Positions 32,582 to 39,600 of a DNA stretch of 64,000 nucleotides are shown piece after piece. A program made the position numbers and the translations under genes. Source of the DNA: the human T2T-CHM13v2.0 reference genome, Homo sapiens; assembly GCF_009914755.1 (NCBI RefSeq), contig NC_060926.1. One strand, written 5' to 3'. Numbering within the stretch: position 1 is the first letter of the stretch; each line of letters opens with the position of its first letter. Below the pieces are notes generated by a model that saw nothing but the letters and a program-made list of their open reading frames with translations, was not told where the DNA came from and did not search any database.

Positions 32582-35033
32582 TAGTCATGTTCTTTATAGA
32601 TTTCATTAAAGACTCTTAATTTTGTTGTGTATGATGACTATTTTCTCCTCTGTAAGAGGGAAACCCAGGTTTATGACATGGACTTCCTTCAGCCACTGCT
32701 AAAGATTGGGGTATGAAGTAGGTTTCTTATTTCCTCTTTTGTATTAATAGTTGGTTCTTTTCAAATCCTCTGAGGGGCAAAAAGACCCTTGGATTTACTA
32801 TATCATGTCTCACAAAGGTAGACTGGTCACATTTGAAATTTTAGATATGTGAACTAATATTGTGGCTGAAGCAGCATGAATAAGCTAAACAATGAAAGGT
32901 AAACCATTTACACATAATTCAGTACCTCTCTTTCCCCCAGGTACTGAAAATCATTTATACTATTTTTATAGTTGAGATGAGCTTCTTTATGAATCAAGTG
33001 AGGTGGCTGGAAAAAGAAAATGTCTTACACTTTCAGAAAGTTTTATGATTATAACATATTAGAAAGTCTTTACCCTAACATATTTCTTATATATAAAACT
33101 GGTAAAGATAAAATGAAATTCATATATTGTTGCTGTAGTGTCCATTATTTGACTCAGCAGGTGATTTTGTGTAAGCCTGCAAGTCATTTTCTGAGATTCC
33201 TTTTCTCAGTAGGAAAAGTAATATGCTAGTATGCAGATGAATCATTTATTCTATCTGATAATTTTGCTTGAAAATCTGCCCAAATCAGTGTGTATACACT
33301 TGAAAGTAAATAAATGTTTGGGTGAGTTTAAAAAGTGTTAGGAGACACAGTCTCTATTTTCAAGTTGCTTACCACATAGTTTTCTATAGGGATGACATTT
33401 AAAATATGTAACAATTAGTAAAGAATAGGCACCAACCAAGTAGAATGGGAGTGACTAATAAGAGCTGGGTCCAAAGGGCTCTATCTTAGCCAGGTATTAA
33501 CCCACTAGTTCCTAAAATGTGGAGGTCTGGGGAATCTTGAGAGGAAGGACTGGCACAGGGGTGAGAAGCATGGGGGGATACCACTCAGAGTTGCAGCTGT
33601 TAACCAACTTGCATTGAAGTATTTCAGTATTTGATTAGTTGGTTCAGCCGTACTTGTGTGTACCAGCTGAACATTAGCCTTGTATATCCATAACTAAAAA
33701 AGCAGTGTAGGTGCCCTAAAATGTAAGGACTGCAAGCGCTATATCTTATTGATATTTGAAAGAAAGGTTATGTATGTTTTAAGGGTGTTGATAATAATGT
33801 GTTCAATAAAATAATTATGAGCCATAAAATATCAAGCTAATTTGGAAGCTTCTTATGCTTTGCACACAAAGGATGTACTATCATGATTTTATGAACTCTA
33901 AGGACTTTAGTTCTAGGATGAACCTTAGAATATATTTAAAACGATCCCCTTAATTTATCAATGAATCTGAGGACCACAGCTATTGTCTCACATTTAGTGG
34001 CAATGGTGAGACTTGAAACTAGGACTCAGGCTTAATCTCTTTTCTCCACACCTCAGGACTTCTCCCTTTGTAAGCAGGAGTGAGGTCCATGCTCTGGCTT
34101 TCCAAACAAGGAAAAGGGCATATGAGTAGTTCAGTGTTCTGAACTACGTATGGCAATCAGTAGGCATTTATCAAGCACCATTTTCGTTGTTTTGGATGTT
34201 TTTTGTAGAGATACAAAACAAAAAATAACCTTCTTTCATGAAGGTATAATATGCAGGTTAGCGGGACTACCTAGCCGTCCATACTGAATGGGTTTGGAAA
34301 TCCCAACTCTTTTCTCTACCTGCTCTGTGATACCAGGCAAGTTAAAGTCTTGTGTGCCTCAGTTTCCTACCTCACCGTGTTATGGTGATTAAATTAATAT
34401 ATATGTGGAGTACTTGACACACAGTCAAGCCTGCGATTACTGCTGTTCATGGTTTTATTTTCTCTACTAGACACCAGTAAGGCACCCCCAGAACTCGCTG
34501 TGTTAAGCAGATTCTGGTTGGATATAGAAACACAGGCACCCCAGGCGGAATGCAGATACGCCTCAACATGTGGATTAAGTAAGAGCCAGGAAGCAGAGTA
34601 ATGAAGCAAAAATAAGATGTCCAGAGTCACCTTTTAAGAAAATGTGGGTTGGTGGTTGCTTAAGAGGGGAGGAGACAATTTAGATGGGATGTATGGCGTG
34701 AGCAAAGGGCAAGAATGAGCACGGTGTAGGCACAAGTCCATGGAACTGCTTGGCTGGATCGGGATTTTTTTGTCATAGAGTGTTAAGAAATAGTCGATCA
34801 GTTGAGGAGTAGAGGAGTGAAGACCTTGGAAAGTTGCCAAAAGCCTCGAGAATTTCTCTACATGTGTGACATGTTCTCAGGACTCAACTTTTTCTTTTAG
34901 GTTTGGAAGACCCGCAGTAAGTGTGCTTTAGAATTAAATGGGTGGGAAGGGGAGCTAGGCAAAACACCTCGCACTTAGCACTAAATAAAGTTCGCTGTTG
35001 CCCTAAGAGACTGAAAAGGTTACTTTAACAAAG

Positions 35034-35042
35034 GGGGCGGGG
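35034..35042 (+). promoter_or_regulatory. GC box (Sp/KLF) GGGGCGGGG
   Basis: Consensus match just upstream of exon 1a. Confidence 0.55.
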
Positions 35043-35217
35043 TTAACTTAACGTAGATGTTTAACTCGTATACAGATGAACATTCCAGTTGATCACTCTG
35101 AAGCTTTTTGGCTAAAGCGTTTGGGTTTAGAGCTTCCATTACTCATCCGCCTTGCCCAAGGCCTCAGCAACCGACGTTCGAAAGCCAGGAGAAAAGGCGA
35201 ATGATAAAGGGCGCTCC

Positions 35218-35227
35218 ACGCATGCGT
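35218..35227. promoter_or_regulatory. NRF1-like palindrome ACGCATGCGT
   Basis: Perfect 10-bp palindrome resembling GCGCATGCGC. Confidence 0.35.
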
Positions 35228-35260
35228 TAAGAAGCCGCCCCAACTCCCCCGCGGCGTTCT

Positions 35261-35269
35261 TTCTTGGAA
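35261..35269. promoter_or_regulatory. GAS element TTCTTGGAA (STAT5/STAT3 site)
   Basis: Perfect TTC-N3-GAA in the core promoter; ZIP10 is a described JAK-STAT target in B cells. Confidence 0.55.
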
Positions 35270-35559
35270 CAAAACTAGCGCGGAGCCACGGAACTCCGCA
35301 GTTTGCGTAGACTTGAATTTCCTATTCCTCGGACGATCCATGTGGAATCCGTGAGTAGTGCGACTCCTTTACGCAACTGGCGTTATCCGAAGTGAATAGC
35401 TAGGTGGCGCGTGTACGCCCATAGCGTAGCACCCATAGGCGGACGGGGTGCGGCTGCGCAGGGAGCTGAGTGGACCTTGTACGCCGCAAGCGTAGCAGGG
35501 TGTCAGACGCGCCGGTTTCTGCGACGCAGTTAGCGCAGTCTGCTTTGGTGAATACACGA

Positions 35560-35621
35560 TTTGGTGCAGCCGGGGTTTGGTACCGAGCGGAGAGGAGATG
35601 CACACGGCACTCGAGTGTGAG
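35560..35621 (+). other. SLC39A10: Non-coding first exon 1b (start approximate)
   Basis: Within the CpG island; donor GAG|gtaact at 35621/35622. The TSS cannot be determined from sequence. Confidence 0.8.
35599..35610 (+). promoter_or_regulatory. Metal response element (MTF-1 site) TGCACACGGCAC in exon 1b
   Basis: Perfect TGCRCNC core plus a GGC flank like high-affinity MREs. Zip10 is reported to be repressed by zinc via MTF-1 at an MRE just downstream of the TSS. Confidence 0.8.
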
Positions 35622-36021
35622 GTAACTATAAAACCCCGATTTGTTTACATTCCCTCCCCCAGAACCGGCCCCGTGCGCGGCGGAGACTGCGAGTCCCGGG
35701 ACGGCGTGGGGGTAGAAAGGGAGAACAGAACCGGGGAGTCGGGGCTGGTTCCCTCGGGGATGCGGGCGCTGGGGTTCCCGCAGCTGCTGCAGTCGGCGGC
35801 GGCCAGCCGAAGCAGAGCGCGTGGTGGGCAGAGTGTTGGGCGCCGCGGCTCCTCGTGTGCGGTCTGGGCTGCTGCGGGCCGCGGGATCGGGAGCCGGCGG
35901 CGTCCACTTCGCGTGCGGAGCCTCGCGCCCCCCTCACCTTCCTGTGGAGGTTGGCGGAGCCTCGCGGGCCGCGCCCGGGGTGGGGGAGTGACCGCTGGGC
36001 GGGTGGCGGCGGTTAGCGGGC

Positions 36022-36028
36022 TGCGCGC
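36022..36028 (+). promoter_or_regulatory. Second MRE core TGCGCGC
   Basis: Matches TGCRCNC, but it lies in GC-rich sequence where chance matches are frequent. Confidence 0.3.
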
Positions 36029-36602
36029 CGGCCGCGGATGGCGTCGCAGGCGCGGGCGGGCGAGGCTTTGGGGATCTGTAGGCAGGTCTTCGGGGGCTTG
36101 GCGACCAGCGCCCCGGTTTTTTCTTCTCCAGTCCTTCTCTCTGGTCTGTAATGGGGCGAGGGGACCCCGGGATGGAGCCTCGGCACCGCTGTTCCGGACC
36201 GAGGCTAACGGACGGCGGCGCCTCTGCTCCTACTAGTTTTCTCCCGGACCAACCGAAAAGCCGAGGCGGAGCGCGGGGGTGTGAAGATCTCGGCCTGCTG
36301 GGGGTCCCTGGAGCTGAGGGTGAGGGTGGGGCCGGGTCGGTGGGACAGGCCGGGTGGGCCGGAGGTGGCGCGGCCGCACGGCTTTGTTCCGGAAAGCCCT
36401 TAGGTGGAGAGCGATGTGGGGCGCGGCAGGGGGATCGCGTAGAGGAACCTTCGCGCACCGCCTCTCCGGGTCTGGGAATCTGCTGAACTCCTTGCCTCTC
36501 CTGGGGTCCCTCGAACGCCCCAGCTAAGAAGGGCGGGGGCCTTGCCAGGGCGCGAGCAACATGACGTTCAAGGTCTTCCTGTGGCTTCTGTAAAGAAATG
36601 TT

Positions 36603-36608
36603 CACGTG
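36603..36608. promoter_or_regulatory. E-box/HRE CACGTG at the 3' edge of the CpG island
   Basis: Motif match only. Confidence 0.3.
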
Positions 36609-39600
36609 GGAGCCTGTCCACATGGGCTGTACTAAGGATCTGGCACGAGGAAGAAATATCACTGCAGAACCTGAAGCCCTCCGTTGGAAGGGTCGTTCAC
36701 TCGAGTACCTATTCTAAGTAACAGTGACACAAAACACATGTTAGAAAAAAACAAAAAGTATGGTAGGTTATACTGTTTTTTAAAAGAAACTTTTATTTAT
36801 GCCTTTTGCTGTTAAGTCCTCTAATTTTACATTGGAACTGAGTCATTCTTGGAGCAAAACTAGAATAGGTTTGTATTTGTTTTCTTTTTGGATGTGTATC
36901 TAAATTGTACATAATTAAGAAAAAGCAAGTAATGGAAAAGCTGGAGATGTAGAACTTAGTTCCTTCTAACTTAGTATGCAATTGAAAGCCTCAAGTCAAG
37001 ACTCCTGTGTATTGTTTTGTATTAGGACTCTATTGTACAAATATTTGAGTACCTTAATATGAGTCAGTTACTTTTTCTAGATCTTGGATCCATGCCAGAC
37101 AACGCACATTCTGCAGACACTGGTTACTCCAGTGGCTCCTTACTGGAAACATATAATATCAGTGATAAGTGCTGTGAAGAAAATAAAACAATGATGTGCT
37201 GGTATGGATTTTTAACTTTTTTATGTGATGAACCACAGAATGATGGTTTTAAATGTATGAAATACATAGAATTGCAACAGAAACCAGTTATGAAATAATG
37301 AAGATATTAAATATGACATCTATATTTTAGTAAAGCATTAGTGAGGACTGTAAATGATCTTTAAAGAATTTGGCTTAAATTTAATCTAAAATTGCTATCA
37401 GGTATTTCACATCGCTGTAATTTTTGCCTGCATTCGTAACTGAAGAGATAAGTAAATGTCAGAGGTTAAGATAAATCTTTTTCTTTTTTTACCTGTCCAT
37501 ATTTACAAACATTCTGCGTTCCGTACATAGACGCCTGGATAAGAACCCCTGTGCAAGAATGACTTTGGTGCTACTTTAAAAAAAGTGGTTGGGGAAGACC
37601 TCATAGGAAATGACATCAATAATAGATTGCATGATAACCTATACTAGTTCTTACTGTTACCAATTTAAATTCTAACTGCTTAAAAGCTAACACGGTCCTT
37701 CCCTTTTTTTGAGCACCTGATTTGAAGTACTTTGAGTAGGCCTCAAGTGTCGTATGCAAGTACTAATCTAGGGGGTGTGCCTTTTTCAAAAGTGATTTTT
37801 GGAGAAGATAGGATGTAGTATTATAGCAAGGAAAATTCAGCATCTGGGATGATCATTTCCTTCTGATTAGAGAAATTTACCTTGTTAATATTCTGTTCAC
37901 CCAACCCTTCTACCCTCAGTGTTGACCAATACTGGAAAAAATTTAGGGCTTTGGAGTGAAATTTTAAAAGTTCAAAACCTTGATCTATTAATTAGTTTGC
38001 TTACCTTGAGGAAGTTGCTTATCTTAATCTTCTATTTGAACTTCAAGTACAAAAACCCTACTCACGGACTTAACTGTGACCATTAAATGAGATAACCAAA
38101 AGGCTGAAGATGATAGTGAGTTGATTTTACCTTTTTTCTACATACAGATGTTTCAGTTCTTTCATTAGTGGTTGAAGGTCTGCGTTCTTTTTCTCCCTCC
38201 ACTCCCTCCTTGACTACCCCCAGAATGAGCTTTGATGGTCTCTACTGGGCCTTTGGGGGGGATACATTATCCTGTTGTTTTTGTTCTGTTACTTATATAT
38301 AATACTCATGGATTTATTTCTACTTCTCTTCCATTTTCTAATTTATAATAACATGTGCATCTTGTTTTCCCTGCCAAACTAAATTTCGTGAGGGGGTACA
38401 TACTGCACAGTTTTTTTTGTCACATACTGCTTATGACACATGAATATGCAGAGCTTGTCAAGCTCTTTAATTAAGTTTAAAATGCTAATTGAGTGAATCA
38501 AAACTTAACCATTATGGTTAGGCTAAAAATGTCAGCTTGTGTTTATATAGTGCTTACCTCAGTATTGGAAATGCCATGAGTTTAGTATCAGAAGGACATT
38601 ATTACTAGTGCATTTTAAAGTGATACCAGTCATAGTTGCAAAAGAAAGTACACAATGGGAAATGGAAGAGAAATGTAGGGAATCAAAACAACTAGTTTTT
38701 TCCTTTATAACGGAAGTTTTATAATTCATCTTTTATGTAAGTGTAATTCTCATTAAAAATACCCTAAAGCTTAAAGTTTGCAAGGCTGCCCAGCCTAACC
38801 CACAACAGTTTGATGCTGCCCCCTAGCGTTTGATTCCCTTCACCTTTTGCTAAAATAAGGTAATGTTTAAATTACAATTAGATTTACTTACTGCTGTAAA
38901 TCTGGTCTATTTTAGTTTCCTCTGGGTAGTTAGTGTTGCTAATAAGATGGACGTAAGTGTTTTTGAACTGGTGAATTCTGATTGCTTTTAGCCCCCAGTT
39001 TTCCAAATAGGGGTGAATTTTGGGTAGAGATAGAACAATCACCAAGTTACCTTGCTCCAAAAAAGAAATTTACGTATGGGATTGTTTTCAAAGCGGGAAG
39101 TTAGCTGTGTAAATAACAACAATTTTATATATTTAATCTGGGCTTCTCCTTATCTTGAATGATATAAAAATCTACTTTCTAGATTAATTTAGTTCCATAT
39201 AACTTTGTATTGCTTTGACTGTACTGATAATAAAGTTTGAAAGTGTTAAATTTACATTGTGAGCTTTTTTTTAAAATTCGAATTTATTTTCTATGACTTT
39301 TATAGAATGATTCTTAAAAAATAGTTTCAAGGACCTCTTCATAGCCACAAGATTTCCTTTTTTATATCATTAATATTATTTTATGTGAATACTATAATGA
39401 AACCCAAGTATTCAGTTTACACACAGATATTATAACACAATATACCACTACACAAAGGCAATGAACAGATAACATTCTACAAAATCTACTTTACAGAAAG
39501 GATTTTCTGTAGTCAATGCAAACTCTTAAGGTTTTAGGTTTTATTTAGATTATTGCAATATCAGTATTTCAAACTCTTTTTTTTCTTTTTATTATCCCTT

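What the first reader, a model, noticed from the sequence alone, without database searches (positions are those of the whole stretch)
35295..35537. Five copies of a spaced inverted repeat (T)ACGC-N5-GCGT(A) across the ZIP10 core promoter
Seen: TCCGC-agttt-GCGTA (35295-35309), TACGC-aactg-GCGTT (35370-35384), TACGC-ccata-GCGTA (35414-35428), TACGC-cgcaa-GCGTA (35480-35494) and GACGC-agtta-GCGCA (35523-35537). Half-sites and the 5-nt spacer length are fixed while the spacer sequence varies, which is the signature of a dimeric protein site rather than a simple repeat. Copies 3 and 4 share 17/20 nt (tgtacgcc-nnn-agcgtagca). Start-to-start distances of 75, 44, 66 and 43 bp are close to multiples of ~10.8 bp. 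Established: GMEB1/GMEB2 (SAND/KDWK proteins, parvovirus initiation factor) bind methylation-sensitive ACGY-N(1-9)-RCGY sites, with a 5-nt spacer at the parvoviral origin, and the GMEB1 SAND domain carries a Zn site. Inference: this may be an undescribed multi-site activating module lying between the two first-exon donors and just upstream of the repressive MRE, possibly the positive arm of low-zinc induction of ZIP10.
Basis: partly seen in the sequence, partly recalled or inferred. Interest (0 to 1): 0.8.

Follow-up and report, generated by a model that had tools for sequence, protein, structure and literature searches.

The report
Repeated dyad sites in ZIP10 promoter
The promoter of the zinc importer gene ZIP10 carries five copies of a small mirror-image DNA word with a fixed 5-base gap, the same arrangement recurs in the GABARAP promoter, and it most likely marks docking sites for a still unidentified paired DNA-binding protein rather than a zinc-specific switch.

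Summary
Three are exact ACGC-N5-GCGT and two are one base off.

Local dinucleotide shuffles almost never give this: 0 of 2000 shuffles. After correcting for all possible dyads and spacers the result is only modest: 3 of 500 to 3 of 1000 shuffles in the 400-bp core, and not significant over the whole 1.5-kb CpG island. The copies are also not fully independent.

The motif is not enriched genome-wide, and N5 is not a favoured spacer.

What strengthens the finding is a recurrence. The only other non-repeat place in the T2T genome with two exact copies close together is the GABARAP promoter. It holds 3-4 copies, again only at N5 and about 40 bp apart.

My best reading is a homotypic cluster of sites for a dimeric, CpG-reading factor. 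GMEB1/2 fits the published loose consensus, but binding could not be tested here. Nothing supports a low-zinc role, and the GABARAP recurrence argues against a zinc-specific one.

Cross-species conservation and ChIP occupancy could not be checked with these tools. Both checks are decisive.

The parts
35295..35309 (.). Dyad 1, TCCGC-agttt-GCGTA. It has 1 mismatch to TACGC-N5-GCGTA. It overlaps the annotated alternative first-exon start at 35298 and lies at -271 to -257 from the main start at 35566.
   Evidence: hub annotation
35370..35384 (.). Dyad 2, TACGC-aactg-GCGTT. It is an exact ACGC-N5-GCGT and lies at -196 to -182.
35414..35428 (.). Dyad 3, TACGC-ccata-GCGTA. It is an exact 10-base dyad at -152 to -138. 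Its right flank TAGCGTAGCACC is identical to a GABARAP copy.
35480..35494 (.). Dyad 4, TACGC-cgcaa-GCGTA. It is an exact 10-base dyad at -86 to -72.
35523..35537 (.). Dyad 5, GACGC-agtta-GCGCA. It has 2 mismatches and lies at -43 to -29. It shares 14 of 17 nt with dyad 1.
35398..35431 (+). First unit of the 34-nt direct repeat that holds dyad 3. All 8 differences from the second unit fall outside the 17 core positions TGTACGCC / AGCGTAGCA.
35464..35497 (+). Second unit of the 34-nt direct repeat, holding dyad 4. Similarity stops sharply outside it: 2 of 10 identical upstream and 0 of 10 downstream.
35599..35605 (+). Context only: the MRE TGCACAC in exon 1. It sits in a stretch identical to the mouse Zip10 MRE oligo outside the bases that oligo mutates.

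Best explanation
The five dyads are a homotypic cluster of binding sites for a dimeric, sequence-specific protein. The protein reads a CpG-centred half-site, (G)C-T-A-C-G-C, twice, with the half-site centres 10 bp (one helical turn) apart. The cluster sits in the unmethylated CpG-island promoter of SLC39A10, from -271 to -29 of the main start.

The factor is not identified. Among described proteins the GMEB1/GMEB2 SAND-domain heterodimer fits best (about 0.25 on its own). An unassigned factor is at least as likely.

Because the same clustered site type sits in the GABARAP promoter, the module most likely acts as a general proximal-promoter element that is lost on CpG methylation, not as a zinc sensor.

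Shown: the sequence pattern, its strict spacing, its excess over local chance, its rarity in the genome, and its recurrence at GABARAP. Inferred: protein binding, dimer geometry, methylation sensitivity and activating function.
For: 1. At up to 1 mismatch, TACGC-Nk-GCGTA occupies only k=5 among k=0..15 at both loci. ZIP10 has 4 sites and the GABARAP region has 3.
2. Over 18 half-sites the core is T 13, A 15, C 18, G 18, C 17. The 2 innermost spacer positions and the outer flanks are near-random.
3. All 3 TACGC and all 3 GCGTA words in 35201-35600 are engaged in N5 dyads.
4. Genome-wide, exact pairs 25-55 bp apart occur at 10 places. By eye, 7 of these are tandem or segmental repeats. The other 3 are ZIP10 (2) and GABARAP (1).
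5. Control patterns give few or no non-repeat pairs by eye:
   - N6 pairs: 14 places, 0 non-repeat
   - N4 pairs: 5 places, 0 non-repeat
   - everted GCGT-N5-ACGC pairs: 6 places, 1-2 non-repeat
   - N5 pairs 56-86 bp apart: 1 place, a tandem repeat
6. The GABARAP region holds 3 sites with at most 1 mismatch, against 0.0137 expected. None of 3000 shuffles gave 2 or more. A fourth site has 2 mismatches.
7. Among all 5-mer half-site words (at most 1 mismatch) and spacers 0-12, TACGC/5 is the top-ranked dyad in both loci.
8. One GABARAP copy shares TAGCGTAGCACC with dyad 3.
9. In the 34-nt repeat around dyads 3 and 4, 0 of 17 core positions differ and 8 of 17 other positions differ. Random placement gives P=0.0013.
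10. Neighbouring sites are 39-44 bp apart in 5 of 8 intervals across three loci.
11. The stretch is unique in the genome, so it is not a transposon copy.
12. For GMEB: PuCGPy half-sites with 7 nt between CpGs fit the range given in PMC4274154.
Against: 1. The strict motif is not enriched genome-wide. There are 29 places against 38 for the reversed control, and 1146 against 1928 for the 8-base form.
2. N5 is not favoured. There are 367 places over 13 spacers, about 28 each.
3. Of 27 other strict sites, 26 have no second copy within 500 bp. Only 5 lie in CpG-island-like DNA with o/e of at least 0.9. Most instances therefore look like chance.
4. Look-elsewhere over all dyads is not significant across the whole island: 285 of 1000 and 95 of 200.
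5. The motif was defined after seeing this locus, by a reader scanning very many windows.
6. The copies are partly related to each other.
7. The ZIP10-GABARAP local alignment scores (24 and 23) are ordinary. 43 of 400 shuffles reach 24.
8. No cross-species alignment, footprint or ChIP data could be consulted.
9. Against GMEB: 17 of 18 half-sites are not ACGT, and the fixed gap is not what a spacing-tolerant factor predicts.
Confidence: 0.5

Rival explanations
1. Neutral pattern. A CpG-rich promoter acquired a few similar short palindromes by chance plus small local duplications (dyads 3/4 and 1/5). The GABARAP resemblance is a coincidence found by a genome-wide search. No protein reads the dyads as such.
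For: - Look-elsewhere over the whole island is not significant.
- The motif is not enriched genome-wide, and N5 is not favoured.
- Dyads 3/4 and 1/5 are pairwise related.
- One control design also gave 1-2 non-repeat pairs somewhere in the genome.
- The general similarity between the two promoters is ordinary.
Against: - For the pre-specified motif, GABARAP has a third site (p about 0.014) and a fourth site beyond the two that led to its discovery.
- Only spacer 5 is used at both loci.
- TACGC/5 ranks first among all dyads at both loci.
- Similarity between dyads 3 and 4 is confined to 34 nt, with all 8 differences outside the core. Plain duplication followed by drift does not predict that.
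Confidence: 0.3
2. GMEB1/GMEB2 bind the five sites and form the activating arm of low-zinc induction of ZIP10, possibly sensing zinc through the SAND-domain zinc site.
For: - The half-sites and the CpG spacing fall inside the published GMEB range.
- In the mouse reporter, TPEN raised Zip10 promoter activity, and MTF-1 siRNA did not change the TPEN effect (PMC3124522, passages). An MTF-1-independent low-zinc input is therefore not excluded.
- PMC5714235 (passages) says the low-zinc promoter element and factor in mammals are unidentified.
Against: - The same module sits at GABARAP, which points away from a zinc-specific role.
- No other place in the genome has two exact copies within about 100 bp, so no other SLC39 or SLC30 promoter does.
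- 17 of 18 half-sites are ACGC-type, not ACGT.
- The GMEB zinc motif has not been shown to affect DNA binding.
- No binding data were available.
Confidence: 0.06
3. Heterogeneous sites that only look alike. Dyads 1 and 5 are initiator-type start-site words (CGCAGT), and the others are sites for different CpG-reading factors. There is no single dimeric reader.
For: - CGCAGT occurs 3 times in 35200-35650, always inside dyads 1 and 5. One occurrence starts at 35297, one base before the annotated alternative start at 35298.
- Dyads 1 and 5 are the two degenerate copies, and they resemble each other more than they resemble the rest.
- An XRE-type core GCGTG abuts dyad 3 (the name is recalled).
Against: - It does not explain the identical 5-nt gap in 9 of 9 sites.
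- It does not explain the recurrence of the full dyad at GABARAP.
- The main annotated start at 35566 is 29 bp downstream of dyad 5, not inside it.
Confidence: 0.1
4. Nucleic-acid structure. The inverted repeats act as hairpins in the intron of the upstream-start transcripts, or as DNA cruciforms.
For: Each copy can form a 5-bp stem with a 5-nt loop. Dyads 2-5 are transcribed as intron from the start at 35298 (hub annotation).
Against: - The RNA fold of 35290-35545 is ordinary. The z-score is -0.60, and 53 of 200 shuffles fold at least as well.
- There is no tRNA.
- No Rfam match comes near a gathering score; the best E-value is 0.23.
- From general knowledge, 5-bp arms with 5-nt loops are too short for stable cruciforms.
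Confidence: 0.03

Closest known systems
GMEB1/GMEB2 (parvovirus initiation factor) sites: two CpG-core half-sites, methylation-sensitive
   Same: Both have two PuCGPy half-sites. The 7 nt between the CpGs here lies within the 4-11 nt range given in PMC4274154. The CpG-island context implies unmethylated CpGs.
   Different: - The published half-site is ACGT. Here 17 of 18 half-sites are ACGC-type.
- The published spacing is flexible, whereas here it is fixed.
- The extra preference for T and (G)C 5' of ACGC is not part of the consensus as I know it.
- Binding was not tested.
NFI sites, TTGGC-N5-GCCAA (recalled)
   Same: Both have 5-base half-sites in a dyad with a 5-nt unspecified gap. That places the half-site centres one helical turn apart, which is the classic geometry of a homodimer.
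   Different: The half-site sequence is different and here has a central CpG. This is not an NFI site.
ZNF410 and its dense motif cluster at CHD4 (recalled)
   Same: The idea is the same: a factor whose only dense site clusters in the genome lie at one or very few promoters, while isolated motif matches elsewhere are chance.
   Different: ZNF410 is a monomeric zinc-finger protein with a non-palindromic motif and many more copies per cluster. No factor is known here.
DEAF1 sites: TTCG half-sites with 6-11 nt between the CpGs
   Same: Both have two CpG half-sites a variable distance apart, and DEAF1 is also a SAND-domain reader.
   Different: None of the 18 half-sites is TTCG. DEAF1 bound the 7-nt spacing less well than the other spacings in PMC4274154.

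Membership tests
GMEB1/GMEB2 binding site | Two half-sites with a CpG core flanked as PuCGPy | tested here: met
   All 18 half-sites have CG. A purine lies 5' in 16 of 18 and a pyrimidine 3' in 18 of 18.
GMEB1/GMEB2 binding site | 4-11 nt between the two CpGs (as summarised in PMC4274154) | tested here: met
   There are 7 nt between the CpGs in 9 of 9 sites.
GMEB1/GMEB2 binding site | ACGT as the half-site | tested here: not met
   Only 1 of 18 half-sites is ACGT (GABARAP copy c, right half). The other 17 carry C after the CpG: 15 are ACGC and 2 are CCGC or GCGC.
GMEB1/GMEB2 binding site | Occupancy by GMEB1/2 that is lost on CpG methylation | not testable with these tools
   No ChIP, EMSA or methylation data can be reached here. 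CpG o/e of 1.1-1.4 across 35100-35600 only suggests an unmethylated island.
DEAF1 binding site | TTCG half-sites | tested here: not met
   0 of 18 half-sites.
E4F1 target site | The gene is listed among E4F1 ChIP-seq targets | tested here: not met
   Neither GABARAP nor SLC39A10 occurs in the one supplementary file held for PMC9409040. The motif resemblance (GCTACGT) is recalled only.
MTF-1 metal response element | TGCRCNC core inside the dyads | tested here: not met
   The only matches in 35000-36700 are at 35599 and 36022, both outside the dyads.
Repeat family or transposon-derived sequence | Other copies in the genome | tested here: not met
   Window 35230-35565 matches only itself in the T2T assembly.
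Structured RNA or tRNA-derived element | A fold better than shuffles, or a match to a family model | tested here: not met
   The fold z-score is -0.60. ARAGORN finds no tRNA. The best Rfam match scores 18.9 bits against a gathering score of 40.

The most novel reading that the evidence does not exclude
The dyad (G)CTACGC-N5-GCGTAG(C) is the recognition site of a dedicated, still unassigned dimeric DNA-binding protein. Its only dense site clusters in the human genome are the promoters of SLC39A10 and GABARAP, plus perhaps one CpG island at C10:96.54 Mb. This would couple zinc import and an autophagy gene under one methylation-sensitive switch, in the manner of ZNF410 at CHD4.
Probability: 0.12. 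Interest if true: 0.8.

Novelty: new member of a known kind. Interest (0 to 1): 0.5.

Why it matters
How mammalian cells switch ZIP10 on is only half understood. The published model is loss of MTF-1 repression at the exon-1 MRE. PMC5714235 (passages) states that the low-zinc promoter element and factor are unidentified.

The passages I read on the ZIP10 promoter address other regions, none within -30 to -270:
- the MRE at +17
- an AhR motif at -646
- c-Myc regions from -941 to -1939

A strict, repeated dyad in that unexamined stretch is a concrete handle for pull-down and mutagenesis. Its recurrence at GABARAP gives a second, independent locus on which to test the same factor.

If it proves neutral, the lesson is methodological. 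Local shuffle statistics in CpG islands overstate significance unless all possible motifs and spacers are counted.

Tried and rejected
Tested and rejected:
- tRNA or RNA-family origin: none found.
- RNA structure: an ordinary fold.
- Transposon or repeat origin: the stretch is unique in the genome.
- General similarity between the ZIP10 and GABARAP promoters: the best local alignments (a 12-mer, and 16 of 19) are ordinary against shuffles.
- Helical phasing: not replicated when the GABARAP distances are added.
- E4F1: I recalled that its site resembles GCTACGT, but neither gene is in the E4F1 target file held for PMC9409040. The main-text passages give no sequence.

Literature searches with no useful result:
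- The motif strings TACGC/GCGTA/palindrome and TGCTACGC/GCGTAGCA returned only unrelated papers.
- The primary PIF/GMEB papers PMC84824, PMC191825 and PMC114429 are not held.
- PMC9776391 and PMC13145115 gave no GMEB site sequence.

Other dead ends and limits:
- The gene at the third locus (C10:96.54 Mb) was not identified. Pfam found nothing credible in 30 ORFs.
- The reversed-pattern control is not valid, because reversal removes CpGs from that pattern.

Full report
**What is in the sequence.** One search shows the five copies at the stated coordinates and with the stated letters. Three are exact ACGC-N5-GCGT (35371, 35415, 35481). Two differ by one base in the 8-base form (35295 CCGC..GCGT, 35523 ACGC..GCGC). 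In the 10-base form TACGC-N5-GCGTA the five copies carry 1, 1, 0, 0 and 2 mismatches. The distances 75, 44, 66 and 43, and the 17-of-20 identity of copies 3 and 4, are correct. The stretch lies in the 5' shoulder of a CpG island, with CpG o/e of 1.1-1.4 across 35100-35600. Relative to the main annotated start at 35566 the copies span -271 to -29. Copy 1 overlaps the alternative first-exon start at 35298. The MRE TGCACAC is at 35599-35605.

**Is it more than chance?** The answer depends on how the question is posed.
- For the stated motif, against dinucleotide shuffles of the local 400 bp: 3 exact copies against a mean of 0.024 (0 of 2000 shuffles reach 3). There are 4 copies with at most 1 mismatch to the 10-base form against 0.03 (0 of 2000). 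The figures are the same for the 1.5-kb island.
- By spacer: only spacer 5 is populated at up to 1 mismatch among spacers 0-15.
- With look-elsewhere, asking whether any half-site word at any spacer from 0 to 12 does as well: 3 of 1000 shuffles (exact 4-mers) and 3 of 500 (5-mers, at most 1 mismatch) in the 400-bp core. Over the whole island the figures are 285 of 1000 and 95 of 200, where GC-only words dominate the maximum.

Given how many windows the first stage reads, the locus alone is suggestive, not compelling.

**The copies are partly related.**
- Copies 3 and 4 sit in a 34-nt direct repeat (26 of 34 identical).
- Copies 1 and 5 share 14 of 17 nt, including 4 of 5 spacer bases.
- Similarity around copies 3 and 4 ends abruptly (2 of 10 identical upstream, 0 of 10 downstream).
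- All 8 differences fall outside the 17 core positions (P=0.0013 for random placement). The core was defined after the fact.

**Genome-wide view.** The window's own assembly (T2T) could be searched by pattern.
- TACGC-N5-GCGTA occurs at 29 places against 38 for the reversed control, which keeps both CpGs.
- Over spacers 0-12 there are 367 places, about 28 per spacer, so N5 is not favoured.
- ACGC-N5-GCGT occurs at 1146 places against 1928.
- I fetched 500 bp on either side of the 27 other strict sites. 26 have no second copy even at 2 mismatches. Only 5 lie in island-like DNA.

The word is therefore not a common promoter motif, and most instances look accidental.

**The recurrence.** I searched for two exact copies 25-55 bp apart. 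This gave 10 places.
- By eye, 7 are tandem or segmental repeats with near-identical units.
- 2 are the ZIP10 pairs.
- 1 is at chr17:7,143,456.

That locus encodes, on the minus strand, the first 30 residues of GABARAP (PDB 1gnu_A residues 1-30, E=1.3e-14). The cluster lies roughly 200-500 bp upstream of the start codon. It holds four copies:
- AACGC-tgcta-GCGTA
- CACGC-catta-GCGTA
- TACGC-aggcg-ACGTA
- TACGC-tgaag-GCGGC

The first three are spaced 39 and 40 bp apart. The first shares TAGCGTAGCACC with ZIP10 copy 3.

Control patterns gave the following:
- N6 pairs: 14 places, none non-repeat by eye.
- N4 pairs: 5 places, none non-repeat by eye.
- Everted GCGT-N5-ACGC pairs: 6 places, 1-2 non-repeat.
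- N5 pairs 56-86 bp apart: 1 place, a tandem repeat.

One chance pair somewhere in the genome is therefore not surprising. But the GABARAP region has a third copy with at most 1 mismatch where 0.0137 are expected, plus a fourth copy. It uses only spacer 5. TACGC/5 is its top-ranked dyad among all words and spacers, as in ZIP10.

Relaxing to ACGY-N5-RCGT pairs gave 60 places, of which 50 were listed. Most are minisatellites.
- Besides ZIP10 and GABARAP, a CpG island at C10:96.54 Mb has three relaxed copies, two of them 39 bp apart. 0 of 3000 shuffles reach that count.
- A CpG-poor place at C5:75.12 Mb has two copies.
- I could not name the chr10 gene.

**Anatomy of the site.** Over the 18 half-sites of ZIP10 and GABARAP the counts are C 10 (position -1), T 13, A 15, C 18, G 18, C 17. 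TGCTACGC occurs in 4 of the 18. The 2 innermost spacer positions and the outer flanks are close to random. Two 5-base half-sites in a dyad with a 5-nt gap put the half-site centres 10 bp apart, which is the geometry of a dimer on one face of the helix (established knowledge). The orientation of the better half-site relative to the gene differs between the two loci, as expected for a symmetric site. Neighbouring sites are 39-44 bp apart in 5 of 8 intervals.

**Which protein?** No tool here tests binding.
- GMEB1/2. [quoted passage not shown] The dyads have 7 nt between the CpGs and PuCGPy half-sites, so they fit the loose consensus named in the title of Christensen 1999 (reference list). However, 17 of 18 half-sites are not ACGT, and the gap is fixed. 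Burnett 2001's title says such sites occur in most human promoters (reference list). The primary papers are not held.
- DEAF1 is excluded: 0 of 18 half-sites are TTCG.
- E4F1, whose recalled site resembles GCTACGT, lists neither gene.
- I know of no catalogued motif equal to this dyad. Two full-text searches for the strings found nothing relevant. Supplements and subscription journals were not covered.

**Function.** Nothing links the dyads to zinc. In the mouse reporter, TPEN raised Zip10 promoter activity and MTF-1 siRNA did not change the TPEN effect. PMC5714235 says the mammalian low-zinc element is unknown. Against a zinc-specific role:
- The module's recurrence at GABARAP.
- Its absence as a pair anywhere else in the genome, which covers every other SLC39 and SLC30 promoter.

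The published ZIP10 promoter work I could read concerns other regions. Mouse oligos printed in PMC3124522 match the human window at 18 of 21, 28 of 28 and 19 of 19 positions between 35549 and 35661. The core promoter is therefore nearly identical in mouse, but these oligos stop 12 bp short of dyad 5.

**Other readings.**
- RNA or DNA structure is not supported.
- Repeat origin is excluded.
- Copies 1 and 5 both contain CGCAGT. One instance starts at 35297, one base before the annotated alternative start at 35298. These two degenerate copies may owe part of their likeness to start-site words.

**Verdict.** The pattern is probably a real cis-element cluster (about 0.5), and neutral origin remains a serious rival (about 0.3). 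GMEB1/2 is a reasonable but unproven candidate. The low-zinc role is unsupported. Two public-data look-ups that I could not make, vertebrate conservation and ChIP/footprint tracks, would settle most of this.

Noticed in passing
L003 (G000:C17:7142700-7144300), positions 756-770, 795-809, 835-849 and 1047-1061: The GABARAP promoter carries 3-4 copies of the same dyad at N5, with the first three 39 and 40 bp apart. Besides the ZIP10 locus itself, it is the only non-repeat place in the T2T genome with two exact copies within about 100 bp.
   Followed up: yes
L035 (G000:C10:96535300-96536400), positions 382, 518 and 557: A CpG island carries three relaxed dyads, including TACGT-cagtg-GCGTA and TACGC-tgttg-ACGTG 39 bp apart. 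0 of 3000 shuffles reach this count. The gene was not identified.
   Followed up: partly
L034 (G000:C5:75116800-75117900), positions 530 and 564: Two GACGC-N5-GCGTA copies lie 34 bp apart in CpG-poor DNA (o/e 0.33), with a donor-like CAGGTGAGTG between them. Their nature is unknown.
   Followed up: no
window 35218-35227: ACGCATGCGT uses the same two half-site words with a 2-nt gap. It is an NRF1-like palindrome (name recalled) 68 bp upstream of dyad 1.
   Followed up: partly
window 35608-35617: A perfect 10-base palindrome CACTCGAGTG lies in exon 1, starting 3 bases after the MRE TGCACAC (35599-35605).
   Followed up: no
window 35297-35302, 35525-35530 and 35534-35539: CGCAGT, an initiator-like word (consensus recalled), occurs three times in 35200-35650, always inside dyads 1 and 5. 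The first starts one base before the annotated alternative start at 35298.
   Followed up: partly
window 35391-35409 and L003 671-689 (minus strand): A 16-of-19 match (GTGAATAG..GTGGCGC) lies between ZIP10, next to dyad 3, and the GABARAP promoter, in gene-sense orientation at both. It is not significant on its own: 74 of 400 shuffles reach that score.
   Followed up: yes
window 35549-35661: Mouse Zip10 oligos printed in PMC3124522 match the human sequence at 65 of 68 specified positions. The core promoter, exon 1 and the start of intron 1 are nearly identical between mouse and human.
   Followed up: yes
window 35915-35927 and 35954-35966: An exact 13-nt direct repeat GCGGAGCCTCGCG occurs 39 bp apart, inside the RefSeq 'silencer' 35915-36034.
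   Followed up: no
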